A stretch of 64,000 nt of DNA from the NCBI GenBank assembly GCA_963817895.1, contig CAWFQB010000003.1, forward strand, positions 384,001 to 448,000, read 5' to 3'. A program made the translations under genes and the position numbers. The notes beneath the pieces were generated by a model. That model searched no databases, was not told where the DNA came from, and saw only the letters and a program-made list of their open reading frames with translations. Shown here one piece after another: positions 15,626-19,812 of this stretch. How positions within the stretch are numbered: position 1 is the stretch's first letter; the number at the start of each line of letters is the position of its first letter. Source of the stretch: an uncultured Chthonomonadaceae bacterium (GTDB lineage: Bacteria; Armatimonadota; Chthonomonadetes; Chthonomonadales; Chthonomonadaceae).

Positions 15626-15690
15626 AGATAAGAGGCACGAGATACGAGATACGAGAAGAGGAACCTCCCCTCTCGTATCTCGTATCTCAT
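15626..15690. repeat. Inverted GATACGA/TCGTATC heptamer arrays forming a hairpin between convergent genes (possible bidirectional terminator)
   Basis: cacgagatacgagatacgag ... ctcgtatctcgtatctc. Confidence 0.75.
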
Positions 15691-16433
15691 CCCTTCCTCA
15701 CGTACCACTCCGCGCACGCCTGCCCGTCTTTGCCGACGAAAAAGCCGATTTCATCCTTTACGGGGTCAATCACGAGGGCGATTTGCCAGTCGGCGCAGAA
15801 GATTTCCTCCTGCGTGTCTAAATCGGTTTGGGACAGAAAAACGCCCATGTTCGGGTGGGAGTGGTAGGAGCCGATCACCGTCCAATCGACGGGCATCTGC
15901 TGGAGTTGAGGCGCTAATGTTCGCCATGAGGCGGTAGTATAGCCGAAGAAGGTGGGGGTTTCAATGCCGTCGGGCGCGGGCAGGGCGTCGTGAATCAGCA
16001 GGAGGTACGAGCGCAAAAGGGGGTCGTAAAACGCCTGTCCGAGCAGCAGCCCGCCCTGTTCCACCTCCACATTGCCGCGCAAATGCGCCTGCGTTTTCTC
16101 TAAAGCCGCGCGATTGACAAAAATGTACGATTGTTGCGGCAAAATAGCGGGCAAACGCGCCAATCCAAGCGTTGGCGCGAACTCTGCGGCGGTAATCTCC
16201 GTCGGCGCGTACACATCCGCGCTCTCCTGCCACACAATATCCCCGGCTGTATCGGAAGCAAGCGCGGCAGTGGAAGAAATCCCGGCGACAGGCGCAGAAG
16301 CAGTTTCCTGTACTGTCTGTACCGCGTTCTCGGCAGGCTTGCCGGAAGTGGATACCAGCCGCGCAATACCGGCCGCCAGCAGCGCCACGCCGCCGAAACT
16401 CCCCAGTATCAAAGCCAAGTCCATACCGTTCAT
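15687..16433 (-). CDS. JAB/JAMM (Mov34/MPN) metallopeptidase with an N-terminal TM helix (putative deubiquitinase/Ubl maturase)
   Basis: EQGGLLLG and GSYHSHPNMGVFLSQTD (E..HxH..S..D); hydrophobic N-terminus MDLALILGSFGGVALLAAGIARLV. Confidence 0.9.
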   Translation of the reverse strand: MNGMDLALILGSFGGVALLAAGIARLVSTSGKPAENAVQTVQETASAPVAGISSTAALASDTAGDIVWQESADVYAPTEITAAEFAPTLGLARLPAILPQQSYIFVNRAALEKTQAHLRGNVEVEQGGLLLGQAFYDPLLRSYLLLIHDALPAPDGIETPTFFGYTTASWRTLAPQLQQMPVDWTVIGSYHSHPNMGVFLSQTDLDTQEEIFCADWQIALVIDPVKDEIGFFVGKDGQACAEWYVRKG

Positions 16434-16505
16434 CCTTTAGGAAGGAGTAAGGGATAAGAACGAGAGTCAGGAAGTTCCTCCCTAACAACCTGACAACTTA
16501 TAAAC

Positions 16506-17165
16506 CTACTCCAACTCTTCCCAAATCAGCGTTGTGTCTTCGCGCAGGCTGAAAAGGGGAGTACCCACGCTGGATTTCTCGCTCACTGGTTCCTCCGGCA
16601 GTTCACCGGACTTCCGCATCAGCGCGCCGATGTCGGGAAGGTCATCTTCACTGACAACCGTGTTGGGTGGAGCGCCAACCGGCGGATCATCGCCCATAAA
16701 CGTAATATTATCCGTTGGCAGTATCAACAAGTTGCGCGTAACCCAGAACATCGCCTGCTCATTCGCCGGGTCCAGAATGTCCATATAGCGGCGGTCGAAC
16801 TGTATCATCGCGCCCAACCGCAAAACTAAATCTTCCAGATACTCCGTCGTCTGCCAGCTTCCCATGCACACGACCCGGTTTGTATATACGTGCGGATTGA
16901 AAATGGGAGTCAGCAGTTCGGCAACGGGCGCGGCGGAGGGAGCCGGGTAGCGGGACGGCAATTTAATGCGAACCCGACTGGAAGCGCGATACACGGGCTT
17001 GCCGTCTTTCAGCGCCTCGATACTCCGGCAATGGTAGGTCAGCACATACTCGTCCGGCGGGCGGCCCTTTGTGGACTCGATAACAAGCCTGCCGCCGCTG
17101 TTGGCCGCCAGAGCAAGCACTTGTTCATAATCCGCCTGTAGGCGTAGGTCGCGCGCGGTAGCCAT
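16506..17165 (-). CDS. Ubiquitin-conjugating enzyme E2-like protein
   Basis: Start MATARDLRLQADYE. UBC signature LPSRYP..P..LLTPIFNPHVYTNRVVCMGSW..L.DLV..PANEQA contains a candidate catalytic Cys. Confidence 0.88.
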   Translation of the reverse strand: MATARDLRLQADYEQVLALAANSGGRLVIESTKGRPPDEYVLTYHCRSIEALKDGKPVYRASSRVRIKLPSRYPAPSAAPVAELLTPIFNPHVYTNRVVCMGSWQTTEYLEDLVLRLGAMIQFDRRYMDILDPANEQAMFWVTRNLLILPTDNITFMGDDPPVGAPPNTVVSEDDLPDIGALMRKSGELPEEPVSEKSSVGTPLFSLREDTTLIWEELE

Positions 17166-17167
17166 AA

Positions 17168-17242
17168 AGATACGAGATACGAGATACGAGATACGAGATG
17201 AAGAGTGTTTTACTCGTATCTCGTATCTCGTCTCTCGTATCT
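17168..17242. repeat. Inverted GATACGA heptamer arrays (hairpin) overlapping the Ubl 3' end
   Basis: (gatacga)x4 ... ctcgtatctcgtatctcgtctctcgtatct. Confidence 0.9.
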
Positions 17243-17503: not shown

Positions 17504-17562
17504 AGGTGAACTCCTGTTCCTGACTGCGCGGCGTGTCGCCCCAACTCGCTCAAGAATGATCG

Positions 17563-18831
17563 TTAATGTTCGCTATTGTTGCCATCGTACTCGCCTGAAA
17601 TTTGAACGTAATGTCGCGTGTCGCCCTGCTTGATTGCCACTATTTGATATTCAGGAATACGCAGAGCAGCAAGCGAATGACGCGCCCACTCACTATCTTT
17701 ATCCACCCAATTCAACGTTTGCGGCTGACGAGAAGGAGTATCACAACGCGGGCAATGATTGAGCGCAAGCGAACAGGTTTCCAGCGGCTGCAATATCGTT
17801 TCACTCTGCCCGCAGTTCAGGCACCGCATTTCGGTCAGCAGGTCAAACCCTAATTCGACAACCCCCTCCGGCATCCCTGCCTGCGCGAGCAATTCCACTA
17901 CGCTAAGTTCCGCCGCCCCCGCTCCCAAAACCGTAACGGGTTCCCACAGTTCATGCGCCAGACACTCCGCGCTGCGCGGCAGCGTCACCGTTTGCAATCC
18001 ATACGGCGCGACTGTCAGGTACAGCTTCTGGCTGAAGGAAAGGCCGACAAAGGATGAAGGATGAAGGATGAAGGATGAAGCCTCTGCTGCTGTTCCCTTT
18101 TCCCTGTTCCCTGTTCCCTGTCCTCGTATCTCGTATCTCGTATCTCGTATCTCTCCTGTTCCCTTCCTCCCATGCAGCAACAGCATCGCCTCATTCACGG
18201 CATACGCGGCGGCGAGGGAGGCGACGACGGCGGTGGTGGGAACCGCGTTTTCGGGCAGGTCGGCGCGCAGACCGCCACAGGAGAACCGTTGATTGCGGCG
18301 TTCCCACAGGGTTTCCGACATGGCGCACTCGAAACAGGCTTCGGGCGCAACGGTGTCGCGGCTCGCGAACAGGGCGATTTCTGCCAGCGTCGCTTCAATG
18401 CCCGTGTTGATCCACGGAACGCCCGCCCGGTTGCAGGCGCGATTGAGCGCGAGACGCGCGTTGATGCTGTCCAGACAGCCGATGACCACATCCATGCTGC
18501 GGTACACGCCCAAACCCACATCGAATTCCAGATTGCCCTGCGCCCATTGCGCATCCACATCCGGGTTCAAGGCGTGGGCGCGATCCGCCGCGACCTGCGC
18601 CTTGCCCCGCCCCACATCGGTTTCCCGAAACAAAACGCTACGCGTCAGGTTGGAAAGTTCAATCGTATCAAAGTCTACCAGCAGCAAATGCCCCACGCCC
18701 ATCAGCGCCAGCAGTTTGACGACTTCATTGCCGACCGCGCCGACGCCCGCAACCAGAACCCGCGCTGTCGCCAGCCGGGTTTGATCCCATCCTTCCAGTA
18801 GATAGTGTCGGGCGTAACGGTCCTGATTCAT
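17563..18831 (-). CDS. E1/ThiF-family Ubl-activating enzyme with a C-terminal Zn-ribbon
   Basis: Start MNQDRYARH. Motifs GVGAVG, DFDTIELSNLTRS, CLDSINAR, CFEC, candidate catalytic RFSCGG, PTT; C-terminal CLNC..CPRC. Confidence 0.93.
   Translation of the reverse strand: MNQDRYARHYLLEGWDQTRLATARVLVAGVGAVGNEVVKLLALMGVGHLLLVDFDTIELSNLTRSVLFRETDVGRGKAQVAADRAHALNPDVDAQWAQGNLEFDVGLGVYRSMDVVIGCLDSINARLALNRACNRAGVPWINTGIEATLAEIALFASRDTVAPEACFECAMSETLWERRNQRFSCGGLRADLPENAVPTTAVVASLAAAYAVNEAMLLLHGRKGTGEIRDTRYEIRGQGTGNREKGTAAEASSFILHPSSFVGLSFSQKLYLTVAPYGLQTVTLPRSAECLAHELWEPVTVLGAGAAELSVVELLAQAGMPEGVVELGFDLLTEMRCLNCGQSETILQPLETCSLALNHCPRCDTPSRQPQTLNWVDKDSEWARHSLAALRIPEYQIVAIKQGDTRHYVQISGEYDGNNSEH
18051..18165. 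repeat. In-frame insert of three tandem-repeat families inside E1 (GGATGAA, CCCTGTT, CTCGTAT)
   Basis: Read directly; encodes GEIRDTRYEIRGQGTGNREKG..SSFILHPSSF. Confidence 0.9.
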
Positions 18832-18870
18832 AGCGAGAGTGGAGAGTGAGAGTGAAGAGTGAGAGAAAAT

Positions 18871-19045
18871 TTCACTACCGGACACATTTTTCCGGGTATT
18901 GAAAATACCCGTCTGAGTGGCGTTCCGCCAAGCGTCCTTCGGACGCGAAACTCTGAAAAACAAGCATTTGCGTCCGAAGGACGCTTGGCCGTAGGCCATG
19001 TAGACAGGGGTTTTCAACCCCTGGCAAAATGTGTCCGGTAGTGAA
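18871..19045. repeat. REPIN/MITE-like long imperfect palindrome
   Basis: 44-bp imperfect inverted ends (ttcactaccggacacatttt..ttgaaaa..gtct) and inner 19-bp inverted pair ccaagcgtccttcggacgc; a half copy lies at 33641. Confidence 0.85.
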
Positions 19046-19059
19046 GAGAAGATGCGTTT

Positions 19060-19812
19060 TTACTCTCCACTCTCACTCTTCACTCTCACTTCCTTTATCG
19101 TATTTCGCGCGTTGCAGTTGCAGCAGCAGCCCCGCGATTCCTTGCGCAGAAAGTTCCAGCCTTCCGGGCTGTAGCACAGTCCGCAATGGGAACATTGAAA
19201 CATGGGTCGGTTTGGGTTCAGCGGCTGGCGGGTGATGGGGCATACCAGTTTGCTTGAAGCCGCCGAAGCCGGGCGATTGGGAACGGGGTTGGCGAGAACA
19301 GGCGTCGGGGCCTGTAGATACGCCAACAATACGGCGACGACATGAGCGCAGGCTAAAGTTCGCGATGGGACTTGAATTGCATTGCTGTTACTGCCGCCGA
19401 CAGAAGCAGCGGGCGTAGAAGTCCGCTTCTGACAGGTGCAGGAAGCGGCTATTTCGCCGTCCTCAAATAAAATCTCTTGATCTTCGTAACGCTGTTCCCG
19501 CGTGGTTCCGGTCAGGCGTCCCCCGTGCGCCACCGCCCGCGTCACCTGCTTGCGCGTGACAAGCTGCTGCCCCTGCGCATAGATGTGGGGAGCGCACTGC
19601 GTGGCGATCCACGCGGGTGTCAGGTCCGTAAAAGCGCGTGGCGTTCCCGGCCTTGTTGGAGCAAACGGGTCCAGCGGCGTGAACTCAATTTCCGGCACAT
19701 CCGTATTCAACTCTGTGGCATTATACGCGCCCGGATTTTGCCCGGAACGGCCTCGCCGCCAGAATGTAAGCCGATCTTTTATTTCGTCAACCAATTCGCG
19801 TACTTCGCTCAC
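19060..19812 (-). CDS. SWIM zinc finger + C-terminal RING/SP-RING-like domain protein (putative E3)
   Basis: SWIM motif SCTC..ACAHVVAVLL; C-terminal CPIT..FQCSHCGLCYSPEGW..CCCNC. Confidence 0.75.
   Translation of the reverse strand: MSEVRELVDEIKDRLTFWRRGRSGQNPGAYNATELNTDVPEIEFTPLDPFAPTRPGTPRAFTDLTPAWIATQCAPHIYAQGQQLVTRKQVTRAVAHGGRLTGTTREQRYEDQEILFEDGEIAASCTCQKRTSTPAASVGGSNSNAIQVPSRTLACAHVVAVLLAYLQAPTPVLANPVPNRPASAASSKLVCPITRQPLNPNRPMFQCSHCGLCYSPEGWNFLRKESRGCCCNCNARNTIKEVRVKSESGE

What the first reader, a model, noticed from the sequence alone, without database searches (positions are those of the whole stretch)
15687..19812. Complete bacterial ubiquitin-like conjugation operon: E3 candidate - E1 - Ubl - E2 - JAB
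Seen: five co-directional genes encoding a SWIM+RING-like protein, a ThiF/E1 with a candidate catalytic Cys (RFSCGG), a beta-grasp protein ending in a Gly motif plus extension, a UBC-fold E2 with a candidate catalytic Cys (VVCMGSW), and a JAMM peptidase. Unlike many neighbours, none of the five shows a frameshift. Known: E1/E2/Ubl/JAB sets form bacterial conjugation systems (Bil and Bub operons; E1-E2 and JAB in CBASS Cap2/Cap3), usually without a separate E3; RING-containing versions are rare. Inference: this is a eukaryote-like three-enzyme cascade with its own E3. It sits beside housekeeping icd-mdh with no defence-island or mobility genes, so it may regulate host proteins rather than, or as well as, act against phage.
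Basis: partly seen in the sequence, partly recalled or inferred. Interest (0 to 1): 0.92.

Follow-up and report, generated by a model that had tools for sequence, protein, structure and literature searches.

The report
Compact bacterial three-enzyme ubiquitin-like pathway
Five adjacent genes encode a complete ubiquitin-style protein-tagging kit (tag, activator, carrier, a stripped-down RING ligase and a trimming protease) of a kind predicted by computer years ago; this version is inherited like a resident chromosomal pathway, and three of its enzymes carry the same short docking peptide, as in the eukaryotic SUMO system.

Summary
The operon is real. All five frames are intact, catalytic residues are kept (E1 C185, E2 C100, JAMM), and folds or profiles point to a UBA3/SAE2-like E1, a UBC E2 and a RING. 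In 42 family genomes (Chthonomonadaceae), E2 and Ubl occur in the same 21 and the RING in 19 of those, always single copy. The genes survive splitting into separate loci, broadly track RpoB, and have no defence neighbours.

Corrections: the Ubl matures at a single Gly (His84-Gly85) and its tail here is repeat DNA; the RING keeps one zinc site; SWIM is optional; icd-mdh is not a conserved neighbour. Complete prokaryotic E1-E2-RING-JAB-Ubl systems were predicted in 2011, and this scan met them before on other DNA.

Added here: E2 tail, JAB arm and RING arm share an acidic [ILV]-x-[WF] motif (70 of 86 new E2 tails, 20 of 20 JABs, 47 of 54 RINGs) facing a basic Ubl segment, a candidate SIM-like docking code (an aliphatic form was noted earlier in this scan). 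In three genera the operon follows a P-II gene.

Verdict: new variant of a predicted, untested kind; probably host-regulatory; targets unknown.

The parts
19895..19923 (-). sigma-70-like promoter candidate (TTGTCA-17-TATAAT), 83 nt upstream of the first gene
   Evidence: 11 of 12 consensus matches, best of 5 sites found (2.5 +/- 1.8 in shuffles); consensus match only
19060..19812 (-). E3 candidate, 250 aa: N-terminal helix (2-23), acidic motif EIEFTPL (41-47), SWIM (C125, C127, C155, H157), degenerate one-zinc RING (C207, C210, C230, C233 kept; site 1 reads C191, T194, S215, G218)
   Evidence: alignments; model; VIA: residues 61-171 ZSWIM8 Z 8.5, rmsd 2.4, 88 aligned; residues ~180-250 RING/U-box entries fill nearly all of ranks 2-50 at Z 4.0-5.5; hhalign to a Prok-RING_1 protein E 3e-5
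19672..19692 (-). acidic aromatic motif in the RING protein's N-terminal arm (E41-L47)
   Evidence: F44 column is F in 53 of 54; full pattern in 47 of 54
18835..19090 (.). palindromic repeat element (core 18867-19060) between inverted 7-mer arrays, inserted between RING and E1; not part of the system
   Evidence: 62 blastn hits of >=100 nt in the genome, self-inverse matches included (about 30 copies); folds at -159.7 kcal/mol, no shuffle control; RING and E1 abut in relatives
17563..18831 (-). E1, 422 aa: adenylation domain (GxGxxG 29-34, D53, R64, K77, D121), zinc site C166/C169/C290/H293, catalytic C185, C-terminal ubiquitin-fold-like domain with a second zinc ribbon; residues ~226-262 are an in-frame repeat insert
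   Evidence: ThiF E 1.9e-47; alignment; best PDB profile hits UBA7/UBA1/SAE2; model aligns 2-414 with UBA3 (Z 24) and 8-412 with SAE2, only 11-292 with the bacterial E1 of 8tyz; Atlas lead E2_bind/UAE_UbL 0.77-0.79 (lead only)
17210..17503 (-). Ubl precursor, 97 aa; mature end His84-Gly85 (Gly codon 17249-17251); tail GGRYERRDTRYE mostly repeat-encoded
   Evidence: G85 invariant in 22; 119 of 120 homologues fit QP..HG/AG, 14 stop at that Gly, 39 have a second Gly; YukD/Rad60-SLD weak; Atlas YukD-type clusters 0.95; no structure predicted
16506..17165 (-). E2, 219 aa: UBC core (H92, N96, C100) plus a variable tail ending in the motif LIWEEL
   Evidence: profile hits UBE2L3 and UBC9 at E 2e-4 with the Cys aligned; alignment
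16512..16529 (-). terminal acidic [ILV]-x-W-x-[DE]-[LI] motif of E2 (L213-L218)
   Evidence: 18 of 21 tails vs 9 of 4460 genome ORFs; 70 of 86 unseen tails, shuffled tails 1.9
16466..16486 (-). terminator-like hairpin between E2 and JAB
   Evidence: 4 such sites found vs 5.1 in shuffles, so weak
15687..16433 (-). JAB/JAMM peptidase, 248 aa: hydrophobic N-terminal segment (8-24), arm motif DIVWQE (65-70), E125, H191, H193, S201, D204
   Evidence: Prok-JAB over cut-off; residues invariant in 9 of 9; hydrophobic segment in 6 of 20 relatives only
16224..16241 (-). acidic aromatic motif in the JAB N-terminal arm (D65-E70)
   Evidence: W68 invariant; [ILVM]-x-W-x-[DE] in 20 of 20

Best explanation
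A resident, vertically inherited ubiquitin-like conjugation pathway with a built-in docking code.
(1) The JAB trims the Ubl precursor after His84-Gly85 and later removes it from targets. The cut site is shown by conservation; activity is inferred.
(2) The homodimer-type E1 adenylates Gly85, takes the Ubl on C185 and recruits E2 through a UBA3/SAE2-like C-terminal domain. Residues and fold are shown; chemistry is inferred.
(3) The Ubl passes to E2 C100.
(4) The one-zinc RING binds E2 through its Val/Ile at C1+2 and its helix Trp and promotes transfer to lysines of host proteins; the N-terminal helix and the optional SWIM module choose place or target (inferred).
(5) E2, RING and JAB each carry an acidic [ILV]-x-[WF] peptide on a flexible arm. 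It most likely pairs as an added strand with the basic beta2-alpha1 face of the Ubl, as SIMs do on SUMO, holding the donor Ubl for transfer in place of the missing linchpin Arg and guiding the protease to tagged proteins. The motif is shown; its partner is inferred.
The tag is probably a reversible regulatory or stress mark, not the main degradation signal, since these bacteria keep a separate Pup/UBact proteasome route. A nitrogen-status link is suggested by the P-II neighbour.
My odds by step: working E1-E2 conjugation 0.85; RING acts as E3 0.7; mainly host-directed 0.55; motif binds the Ubl 0.5; nitrogen link 0.25.
For: Catalytic residues are kept. The E1 model runs through the C-terminal domain of UBA3/SAE2. 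RING/U-box fold matches and homology to Prok-RING_1. RING C1+2 is V/I in 51 of 51 fitted and W219 is near-invariant; these are the two positions shown to matter in the archaeal RING (passages, PMC5654768). Co-occurrence: E2 and Ubl in the same 21 of 42 genomes, RING in 19 of these (the two misses are 73% and 67% complete); the same 12 of 25 near-complete genomes hold all three, one copy each. All five genes persist after scattering to 2-3 loci in genera g8 and g159. Tree distances follow RpoB (Spearman 0.60 for 19 genomes, 0.73 for one per genus, 0.54 without outgroup). 1 of 83 flanking ORFs hit PADLOC, a partial methyltransferase. No E2 match in 50,697 phage records and one distant match in 72,556 plasmids. 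Motif counts. The Ubl segment from D14 is net +2 to +8 in 120 of 120, with D14, T16, R17, A19, W40 invariant. Pup-type ligases in 41 of 42 genomes. P-II abuts the RING gene in 6 of 19 RING loci.
Against: No biochemical or expression data. RING Z-scores are only 4-5.5, no member of 54 reaches a strong RING Pfam hit (Prok-RING_1 best E 6e-4, 8 of 54), and the linchpin position is R/K in only 18 of 51 and is Asn here. E2 loop 7 reads WQTT rather than the usual WSPA (recalled). The system was not found in 21 of 42 genomes (13 of 25 near-complete), which is defence-like patchiness and shows it is dispensable. Deep nodes of the system tree differ from RpoB (g8), and kin are not independent. The motif patterns were defined after seeing the data, differ between the three proteins, and E1 lacks one. 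The JAB motif runs into a conserved DVYxP stretch that may simply pack on the JAB fold. The P-II link is one inherited arrangement, is lost in this genome's genus (one P-II match only, elsewhere) and may be mere synteny. A transposase lies 1.7 kb from the operon in G261.
Confidence: 0.55

Rival explanations
1. An anti-phage system working like Bil: the cascade tags a phage structural or replication protein, and the RING/SWIM supplies the specificity.
For: The bacterial conjugation systems studied so far (CBASS Cap2, Bil) are antiviral and Bub is thought to be (PMC11601596, part 1 read; PMC10557695 passages). The system is patchy: not found in 13 of 25 near-complete family genomes. Losses are interspersed on the RpoB tree. 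The SWIM module comes and goes (19 of 54).
Against: Single copy, genus-level all-or-none presence, survival of all five genes after scattering, 1 of 83 flanking ORFs with a PADLOC hit, and co-directional linkage to P-II and ATP-grasp genes. No BilA/BilB hit, and BilD matches only residues 21-87.
Confidence: 0.25
2. Conjugation runs on E1-E2 alone. The degenerate zinc finger is an adaptor or sensor without ligase activity, and the shared motif binds something other than the Ubl (the E1 C-terminal beta-grasp domain, the protein's own fold, or an outside scaffold).
For: Zinc site 1 is lost in 51 of 51 and the linchpin Arg is mostly absent. In g159 the RING gene is paired with JAB, away from E1 and E2. 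Bil works without an E3 (PMC11601596). E1 has a ubiquitin-fold-like domain and no motif of its own.
Against: E2-contact positions of the RING are kept. One-zinc SP-RING and zinc-free U-box domains are active E3s (recalled), and both appear among the fold matches. In the expanded system L042 the E1 itself carries an acidic aliphatic motif, which fits a Ubl partner better than an E1 partner.
Confidence: 0.12
3. Atg8-like: the single-Gly Ubl is joined to a membrane amino-lipid or small amine, with WxxL (AIM/LIR-like) motifs organising the enzymes at the membrane.
For: The E2 motif consensus is acidic-W-x-D-L, which resembles AIM/LIR motifs (recalled). The Ubl ends in one Gly. The JAB has a hydrophobic N-terminus in 6 of 20 and the RING arm is amphipathic in 39 of 54.
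Against: E1 and E2 are of the canonical UBA/UBC type by profile. The Ubl has no N-terminal extension of the kind that forms the Atg8 Trp pocket (recalled). Membrane segments are optional.
Confidence: 0.05
4. A sulfur-carrier or metabolite-biosynthesis module of the ThiS/MoaD-ThiF-JAB kind.
For: Best NCBIfam and Foldseek hits of the E1 core are ThiF/MoeB. Sulfur-assimilation genes flank two loci.
Against: A catalytically intact E2 and a RING always come along. The E1 has a UBA-like C-terminal domain. All ThiF/MoeB scores are far below cut-off. Separate shorter ThiF-family genes exist in the genomes tested. No biosynthetic enzyme is conserved beside the operon.
Confidence: 0.03

Closest known systems
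Prokaryotic complete ('tri-ligase') Ubl systems with Prok-RING E3, predicted by Burroughs, Iyer and Aravind 2011 (paper not held; known from passages in PMC7159879, PMC3417536, PMC10557695 and the Pfam family)
   Same: Ubl, E1, E2, RING-type E3 and JAB in one neighbourhood; RING homologous to Prok-RING_1; expanded versions with canonical Prok-RING_1 occur in other families of the same phylum.
   Different: Minimal five-gene set with one copy of each; RING has one zinc site, no membrane domain and an optional SWIM; no trypsin, FHA, vWA-MoxR or caspase partners; aromatic docking-type motif; vertical descent with gene scattering rather than mobility. I could not check whether the 2011 paper lists this subtype.
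Caldiarchaeum subterraneum Ub/E1/E2/small RING/Rpn11 operon (PMC5654768, passages)
   Same: Same five-part compact design, pro-Ubl with a tail, E1 with a C-terminal ubiquitin-like domain, RING Ile and Trp E2-contact positions.
   Different: There: true di-Gly ubiquitin, canonical two-zinc RING with linchpin Arg, activity shown. Here: YukD-type Ubl with His-Gly end, one-zinc RING, linchpin mostly absent, nothing tested.
Bil (BilABCD) and Bub systems (PMC11601596 part 1; PMC10557695 passages)
   Same: Bacterial Ubl, E1, E2 and JAB that process and conjugate a Ubl ending in Gly.
   Different: Bil has an IAD-AAD-CYS E1 and no E3. Bub lacks catalytic cysteines, has fusions and DUF6527. Here: single-AAD E1 with Cys and a UFD-like domain, Cys E2, separate genes, a RING, and no defence context.
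Eukaryotic SUMO pathway (SIMs on E1, E3s and proteases; SP-RING E3s) (PMC12687455 passages; details recalled)
   Same: Works like it in design: one-zinc RING starting CP[IV]T, acidic hydrophobic short motifs on pathway enzymes, basic face on the modifier.
   Different: No sign of common descent of the motif system; motif centred on Trp/Phe and carried by E2 but not E1; single-Gly modifier; binding untested.

Membership tests
Prokaryotic tri-ligase Ubl system | E1 with adenylation motifs and catalytic Cys | tested here: met
   (C185 in 19 of 19 that span it)
Prokaryotic tri-ligase Ubl system | UBC-fold E2 with catalytic Cys | tested here: met
   profile hits to UBE2L3/UBC9 with Cys aligned; Cys in 22 of 22
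Prokaryotic tri-ligase Ubl system | beta-grasp Ubl with conserved terminal Gly | tested here: met
   G85 invariant; fold from weak Pfam hits and Atlas features, no model made
Prokaryotic tri-ligase Ubl system | JAB peptidase with intact JAMM motif | tested here: met
Prokaryotic tri-ligase Ubl system | co-encoded RING-fold protein | tested here: met
   co-occurrence
Prokaryotic tri-ligase Ubl system | RING-dependent conjugation to targets | not testable with these tools
   needs reconstitution
Prok-RING_1 (PF14446) | eight-ligand, two-zinc cross-brace and a score over the Pfam cut-off | tested here: not met
   positions 2, 5, 6 are T, S, G in 51 of 51 fitted; no hit for this protein, weak hits in 8 of 54. 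It is a derived relative, not a member.
SWIM zinc finger | CxC..CxH motif in a SWIM fold | tested here: met
   C125, C127, C155, H157 invariant in 14; ZSWIM8 Z 8.5, rmsd 2.4, 88 aligned
Bil (type I/II) | [quoted passage not shown] | tested here: not met
   single ThiF domain at 16-212; BilD model matches only 21-87
Bil (type I/II) | no E3 in the operon | tested here: not met
   RING gene leads the operon
Bil (type I/II) | anti-phage activity | not testable with these tools
   context shows no defence neighbours, which is not a test of activity
Bub (6E/DUF6527) | E1 and E2 without catalytic Cys; Ubl-E2 or E2-E1 fusions; DUF6527 protein | tested here: not met
   Cys kept in both, five separate genes, no DUF6527 hit among the five proteins
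Type II CBASS Cap2/Cap3 | E2-E1 fusion beside a CD-NTase | tested here: not met
   E1 and E2 separate; PADLOC E1-E2 models hit only the adenylation core; no CD-NTase among 83 flanking ORFs of relatives
SUMO-type SIM docking | short hydrophobic strand with acidic flank on pathway enzymes | tested here: met
   (aromatic variant)
SUMO-type SIM docking | basic groove between beta2 and alpha1 of the modifier | tested here: inconclusive
   segment is basic in 120 of 120 with invariant R17 and W40; strand/helix assignment is by homology, no model
SUMO-type SIM docking | direct binding of motif to modifier | not testable with these tools
   needs ITC, NMR or a structure

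The most novel reading that the evidence does not exclude
A bacterial counterpart of the SUMO pathway: a chromosomal, reversible protein-tagging cascade for host regulation, with a one-zinc RING E3 and a SIM/AIM-like Trp/Phe peptide by which E2, E3 and the protease all dock on the modifier, ancestrally co-transcribed with a P-II gene and a peptide-ligase module and so tied to nitrogen status. 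It would be the first working RING E3 and the first SIM-type groove shown in bacteria.
Probability: 0.3. Interest if true: 0.88.

Novelty: new variant of a known kind. Interest (0 to 1): 0.62.

Why it matters
In the papers I could search I found no bacterial RING E3 tested, and the tested bacterial conjugation systems are antiviral. This five-protein set is small, mostly soluble and single-copy, so it makes two open questions directly testable: whether bacteria run E3-directed Ubl conjugation on their own proteins, and whether SIM-type docking predates eukaryotes. A 2025 review states that no prokaryotic system is known to share SUMO's SIM-binding groove (PMC12687455, passage). The His-Gly end and the repeat-derived tail also matter in practice: a construct cut at 'GG' would be the wrong mature form.

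Tried and rejected
Complex prediction of mature Ubl with the last 32 residues of E2: no answer (0.17 against a mark of 0.32, controls not folded); not used as evidence. RING-E2 was not folded (one job only). No RNA holder was listed for the region. Burroughs 2011 and 2012 are not held, so the subtype could be listed there. The named-genome scan gave only 2 loci and the metagenome scan 4, some duplicating loci already held and not counted twice; range outside this order is therefore not established, and cluster look-ups gave no taxa. Foldseek on the RING protein gave no hit at E <= 0.001. Sequence-profile searches of the PDB with the Ubl and RING alignments gave nothing informative. The first RpoB tree had a wrong-strand ORF for G087 and was redone.

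Rejected readings: a di-Gly end (39 of 119 have a second Gly); a functional Ubl tail (repeat DNA, differs among 99%-identical Ubls); icd-mdh as functional context (neighbours differ even within the genus); SWIM as essential (19 of 54); P-II as obligatory substrate (absent beside the operon in this genus); longer upstream starts for E1 and E2 (they run through repeat DNA, and relatives begin at the ATGs used). The loose aliphatic pattern applied to L042 also matched the Ubl's own first strand, so it is a weak test. Place and sequence look-ups in earlier scan notes showed nothing.

Full report
Observation. Five co-directional frames lie on the minus strand at 19060-19812, 17563-18831, 17210-17503, 16506-17165 and 15687-16433, with gaps of 228, 59, 44 and 72 nt. 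A sigma-70-like site with 11 of 12 matches lies 83 nt upstream. None of the five is frameshifted against relatives. The adjacent icd is split over two frames; in an 81%-complete assembly this is probably sequencing error (inference). The genome has one copy of each gene. Relatives are labelled Chthonomonadaceae in record titles and protein names.

E1. ThiF domain at E 1.9e-47, with all ThiF/MoeB family scores far under their cut-offs. A profile of 7 sequences ranks UBA7, UBA1 and SAE2 above MoeB and ThiF. The model (mean pLDDT 66) aligns over residues 2-414 with UBA3 and 8-412 with SAE2, but only 11-292 with the bacterial E1 in 8tyz; MoeB has the top Z (27.3) over 1-291. This supports a C-terminal ubiquitin-fold-like domain. 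The Atlas gives E2_bind and UAE_UbL as weak leads. C185 is present in 19 of 19 E1s that span it. Residues ~226-262 are three in-frame 7-mer arrays; G306 has a different repeat insert in the same loop.

E2 and JAB. The E2 profile hits 241 PDB sequences at E <= 1, led by UBE2L3 and UBC9 at 2e-4 with the Cys aligned. H92, N96 and C100 are invariant in 9, and the Cys is kept in 22 of 22. The JAB passes the Prok-JAB cut-off and keeps E125, H191, H193, S201 and D204.

Ubl. Pfam gives YukD and Rad60-SLD below cut-off; the Atlas gives YukD-type clusters at 0.95. I made no model of it. G85 is invariant in 22. Of the best 120 of 141 homologues, 119 fit QP..HG/AG: 14 stop at that Gly, 69 have two more residues, and only 39 have a second Gly. 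The mature end is therefore His-Gly. The tail here is read-through of an AGATACG array, and 99%-identical Ubls have other tails.

E3 candidate. Residues 61-171 match ZSWIM8 (Z 8.5, rmsd 2.4, 88 aligned). For residues ~180-250, RING and U-box entries fill nearly all of ranks 2-50 at Z 4.0-5.5. These Z values are middling, but uniform in kind. The domain aligns to a canonical Prok-RING_1 protein from an expanded system of the same phylum (E 3e-5, probability 72%). Ligands 2, 5 and 6 are T, S and G in 51 of 51 fitted sequences (3 of 54 did not fit the pattern), so one zinc site remains. The E2-contact positions are kept (V/I in 51 of 51, W219 near-invariant), but the linchpin position is R/K in 18 of 51 and Asn here. 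A profile search found 74 representatives. Of the 54 that I aligned, 19 have SWIM; the core is a 100-125 residue protein of N-terminal helix, acidic motif and RING.

Distribution and descent. Among 301 genomes of the phylum, 34 match the E2; strong matches are confined to this family and one genome of a sister family. In 42 family genomes, E2 and Ubl occur in the same 21 and the RING in 19 of them. The two misses are 73% and 67% complete. Among 25 near-complete genomes the same 12 hold all three, always once. The order RING-E1-Ubl-E2-JAB holds in most. Genus g8 splits RING-E1 from the rest. Genus g159 has RING and JAB back to back, Ubl-E2 elsewhere and E1 on a third contig, yet keeps all five. 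In the E1+E2+Ubl tree every multi-genome genus is one clade, and tree distances correlate with RpoB (0.60 for 19 genomes, 0.73 for 11 genera, 0.54 with p 0.04 without the outgroup), though deep nodes differ. This reads as an old chromosomal pathway lost repeatedly (inference; kin are not independent).

Neighbourhood. I scanned 83 of 131 flanking ORFs picked by length from 16 loci (the nearest ones; some are probably wrong-strand frames). Pfam shows metabolic genes and one transposase; PADLOC has 1 partial hit. The E2 has no match in 50,697 phage records and one distant match in 72,556 plasmids. In G199, G087, G319, G247, G305 and G312 (6 of 19 RING loci) a P-II gene ends about 30-70 nt before the RING start, behind a circularly permuted ATP-grasp, alpha-E and transglutaminase gene. 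In G313 P-II is 2.8 kb upstream. These three genera fall in one RpoB clade, so this is one event. The ATP-grasp module is a predicted peptide-ligation system whose partner Anbu rises under nitrogen limitation (PMC5666114, passages). In this genome the module lies on another contig and only one P-II match exists. Pup-type ligases are in 41 of 42 genomes, and this genome has proteasome-family genes and a UBact-like frame beside them (the UBact end motif is recalled), so a separate degradation tag exists.

The shared motif. E2 ends in LIWEELE, JAB has DIVWQE before its domain, and the RING has EIEFTPL. The E2 pattern is in 18 of 21 relatives against 9 of 4460 long ORFs of the genome. Out of sample, of 102 E2 hits I dropped 12 already seen and 4 short or incomplete ones. 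Of the other 86, 70 match, 85 have a Trp in the last 14 residues, shuffled tails give 1.9, and the linker varies from 19 to 76 residues. JAB arms match in 20 of 20 and RING arms in 47 of 54. The Ubl lacks the aromatic motif; its 28 residues from D14 are net +2 to +8 in 120 of 120, with D14, T16, R17, A19 and W40 invariant. A conserved peptide at the end of a variable linker, on three enzymes that all handle the Ubl, facing a basic patch on it, is the design of SIM docking. The W-x-D-L consensus also recalls AIM/LIR motifs (recalled). The partner is inferred. I reached this before consulting the scan's notes, which hold two earlier findings of an aliphatic form in other Ubl operons; they are not independent support.

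What is known. [quoted passage not shown] The 2011 source paper was not held and I saw none of it or its supplement. The archaeal five-gene operon is reconstituted (PMC5654768, passages). Bil and Bub differ in defining features (PMC11601596, part 1 of 7 read). PMC11354881 (passages) notes bacterial RINGs that lack two pairs of ligands, so a one-zinc bacterial RING is not new in itself. PMC1779556 (passages) describes YukD as non-conjugated in secretion loci. A 2025 review says no prokaryotic system shows SUMO's SIM groove (PMC12687455, passage). Searches showed no test of a bacterial RING cascade; most subscription journals are not covered. The scan has met RING-containing operons before in other genomes, mostly membrane-anchored and expanded.

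Verdict. This is a new variant of a predicted kind: minimal, vertically inherited, with a one-zinc RING, a His-Gly Ubl and an aromatic docking-type motif on E2, E3 and protease. A host-regulatory role is likelier than anti-phage defence but unproven. Interest 0.62; 0.88 if the SUMO-like reading holds (probability about 0.3).

Noticed in passing
window 15626-15688, 17168-17242, 18050-18153, 18835-18865, 19062-19090; genome-wide: Short tandem arrays of 7-base units, often as inverted pairs forming hairpins: 557 arrays of three or more exact 7-mers in the genome, against 4, 30, 79 and 6 for 5-, 6-, 8- and 9-mers. They enter coding sequence in frame (E1 loop, Ubl tail).
   Followed up: partly
window 18867-19060: A nested palindromic element (MITE- or REP-like), about 30 copies in the genome, inserted between RING and E1; its hairpin could affect E1 expression.
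   Followed up: partly
L034, L032, L074, L037, L081, L078, L085 upstream of the RING gene: CP-ATP-grasp, alpha-E, transglutaminase and P-II genes run co-directionally into the Ubl operon, so two predicted protein-tagging systems may share a transcript.
   Followed up: partly
L042:7145-15786 and L039-L050: Other families of the phylum carry an expanded system: two E2s, two JABs (one with LysM), three Prok-RING_1 proteins, trypsin-like protease, FHA protein, with acidic aliphatic motifs on 6 of 10 non-Ubl proteins.
   Followed up: partly
proteins P0071-P0073, P0078, P0080, P0082, P0086-P0089: Distant one-zinc RING relatives fused to an unidentified C-terminal domain of about 100 residues, several with an aromatic motif just before the RING; context unknown.
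   Followed up: no
G000:C14:121594-130062 (L135): Pup/UBact-type proteasome locus with two ligase-family genes, two proteasome-family genes and a UBact-like frame at L135:6236-6433.
   Followed up: partly
window 13455-14623, 8378-10854, 20705-23437: icd is split over two frames, and several other neighbours (including two HEAT-repeat genes) look frame-broken or oddly started; probably assembly indels.
   Followed up: no
window 23609-23682: tRNA-Pro(CGG) 3.8 kb upstream of the operon; GC content around the operon is flat at 0.55-0.62.
   Followed up: no
P0001 residues 61-171: The SWIM module, with its preceding helices and sheet, best matches ZSWIM8, itself part of a cullin-RING ligase; possibly coincidence of PDB coverage.
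   Followed up: no
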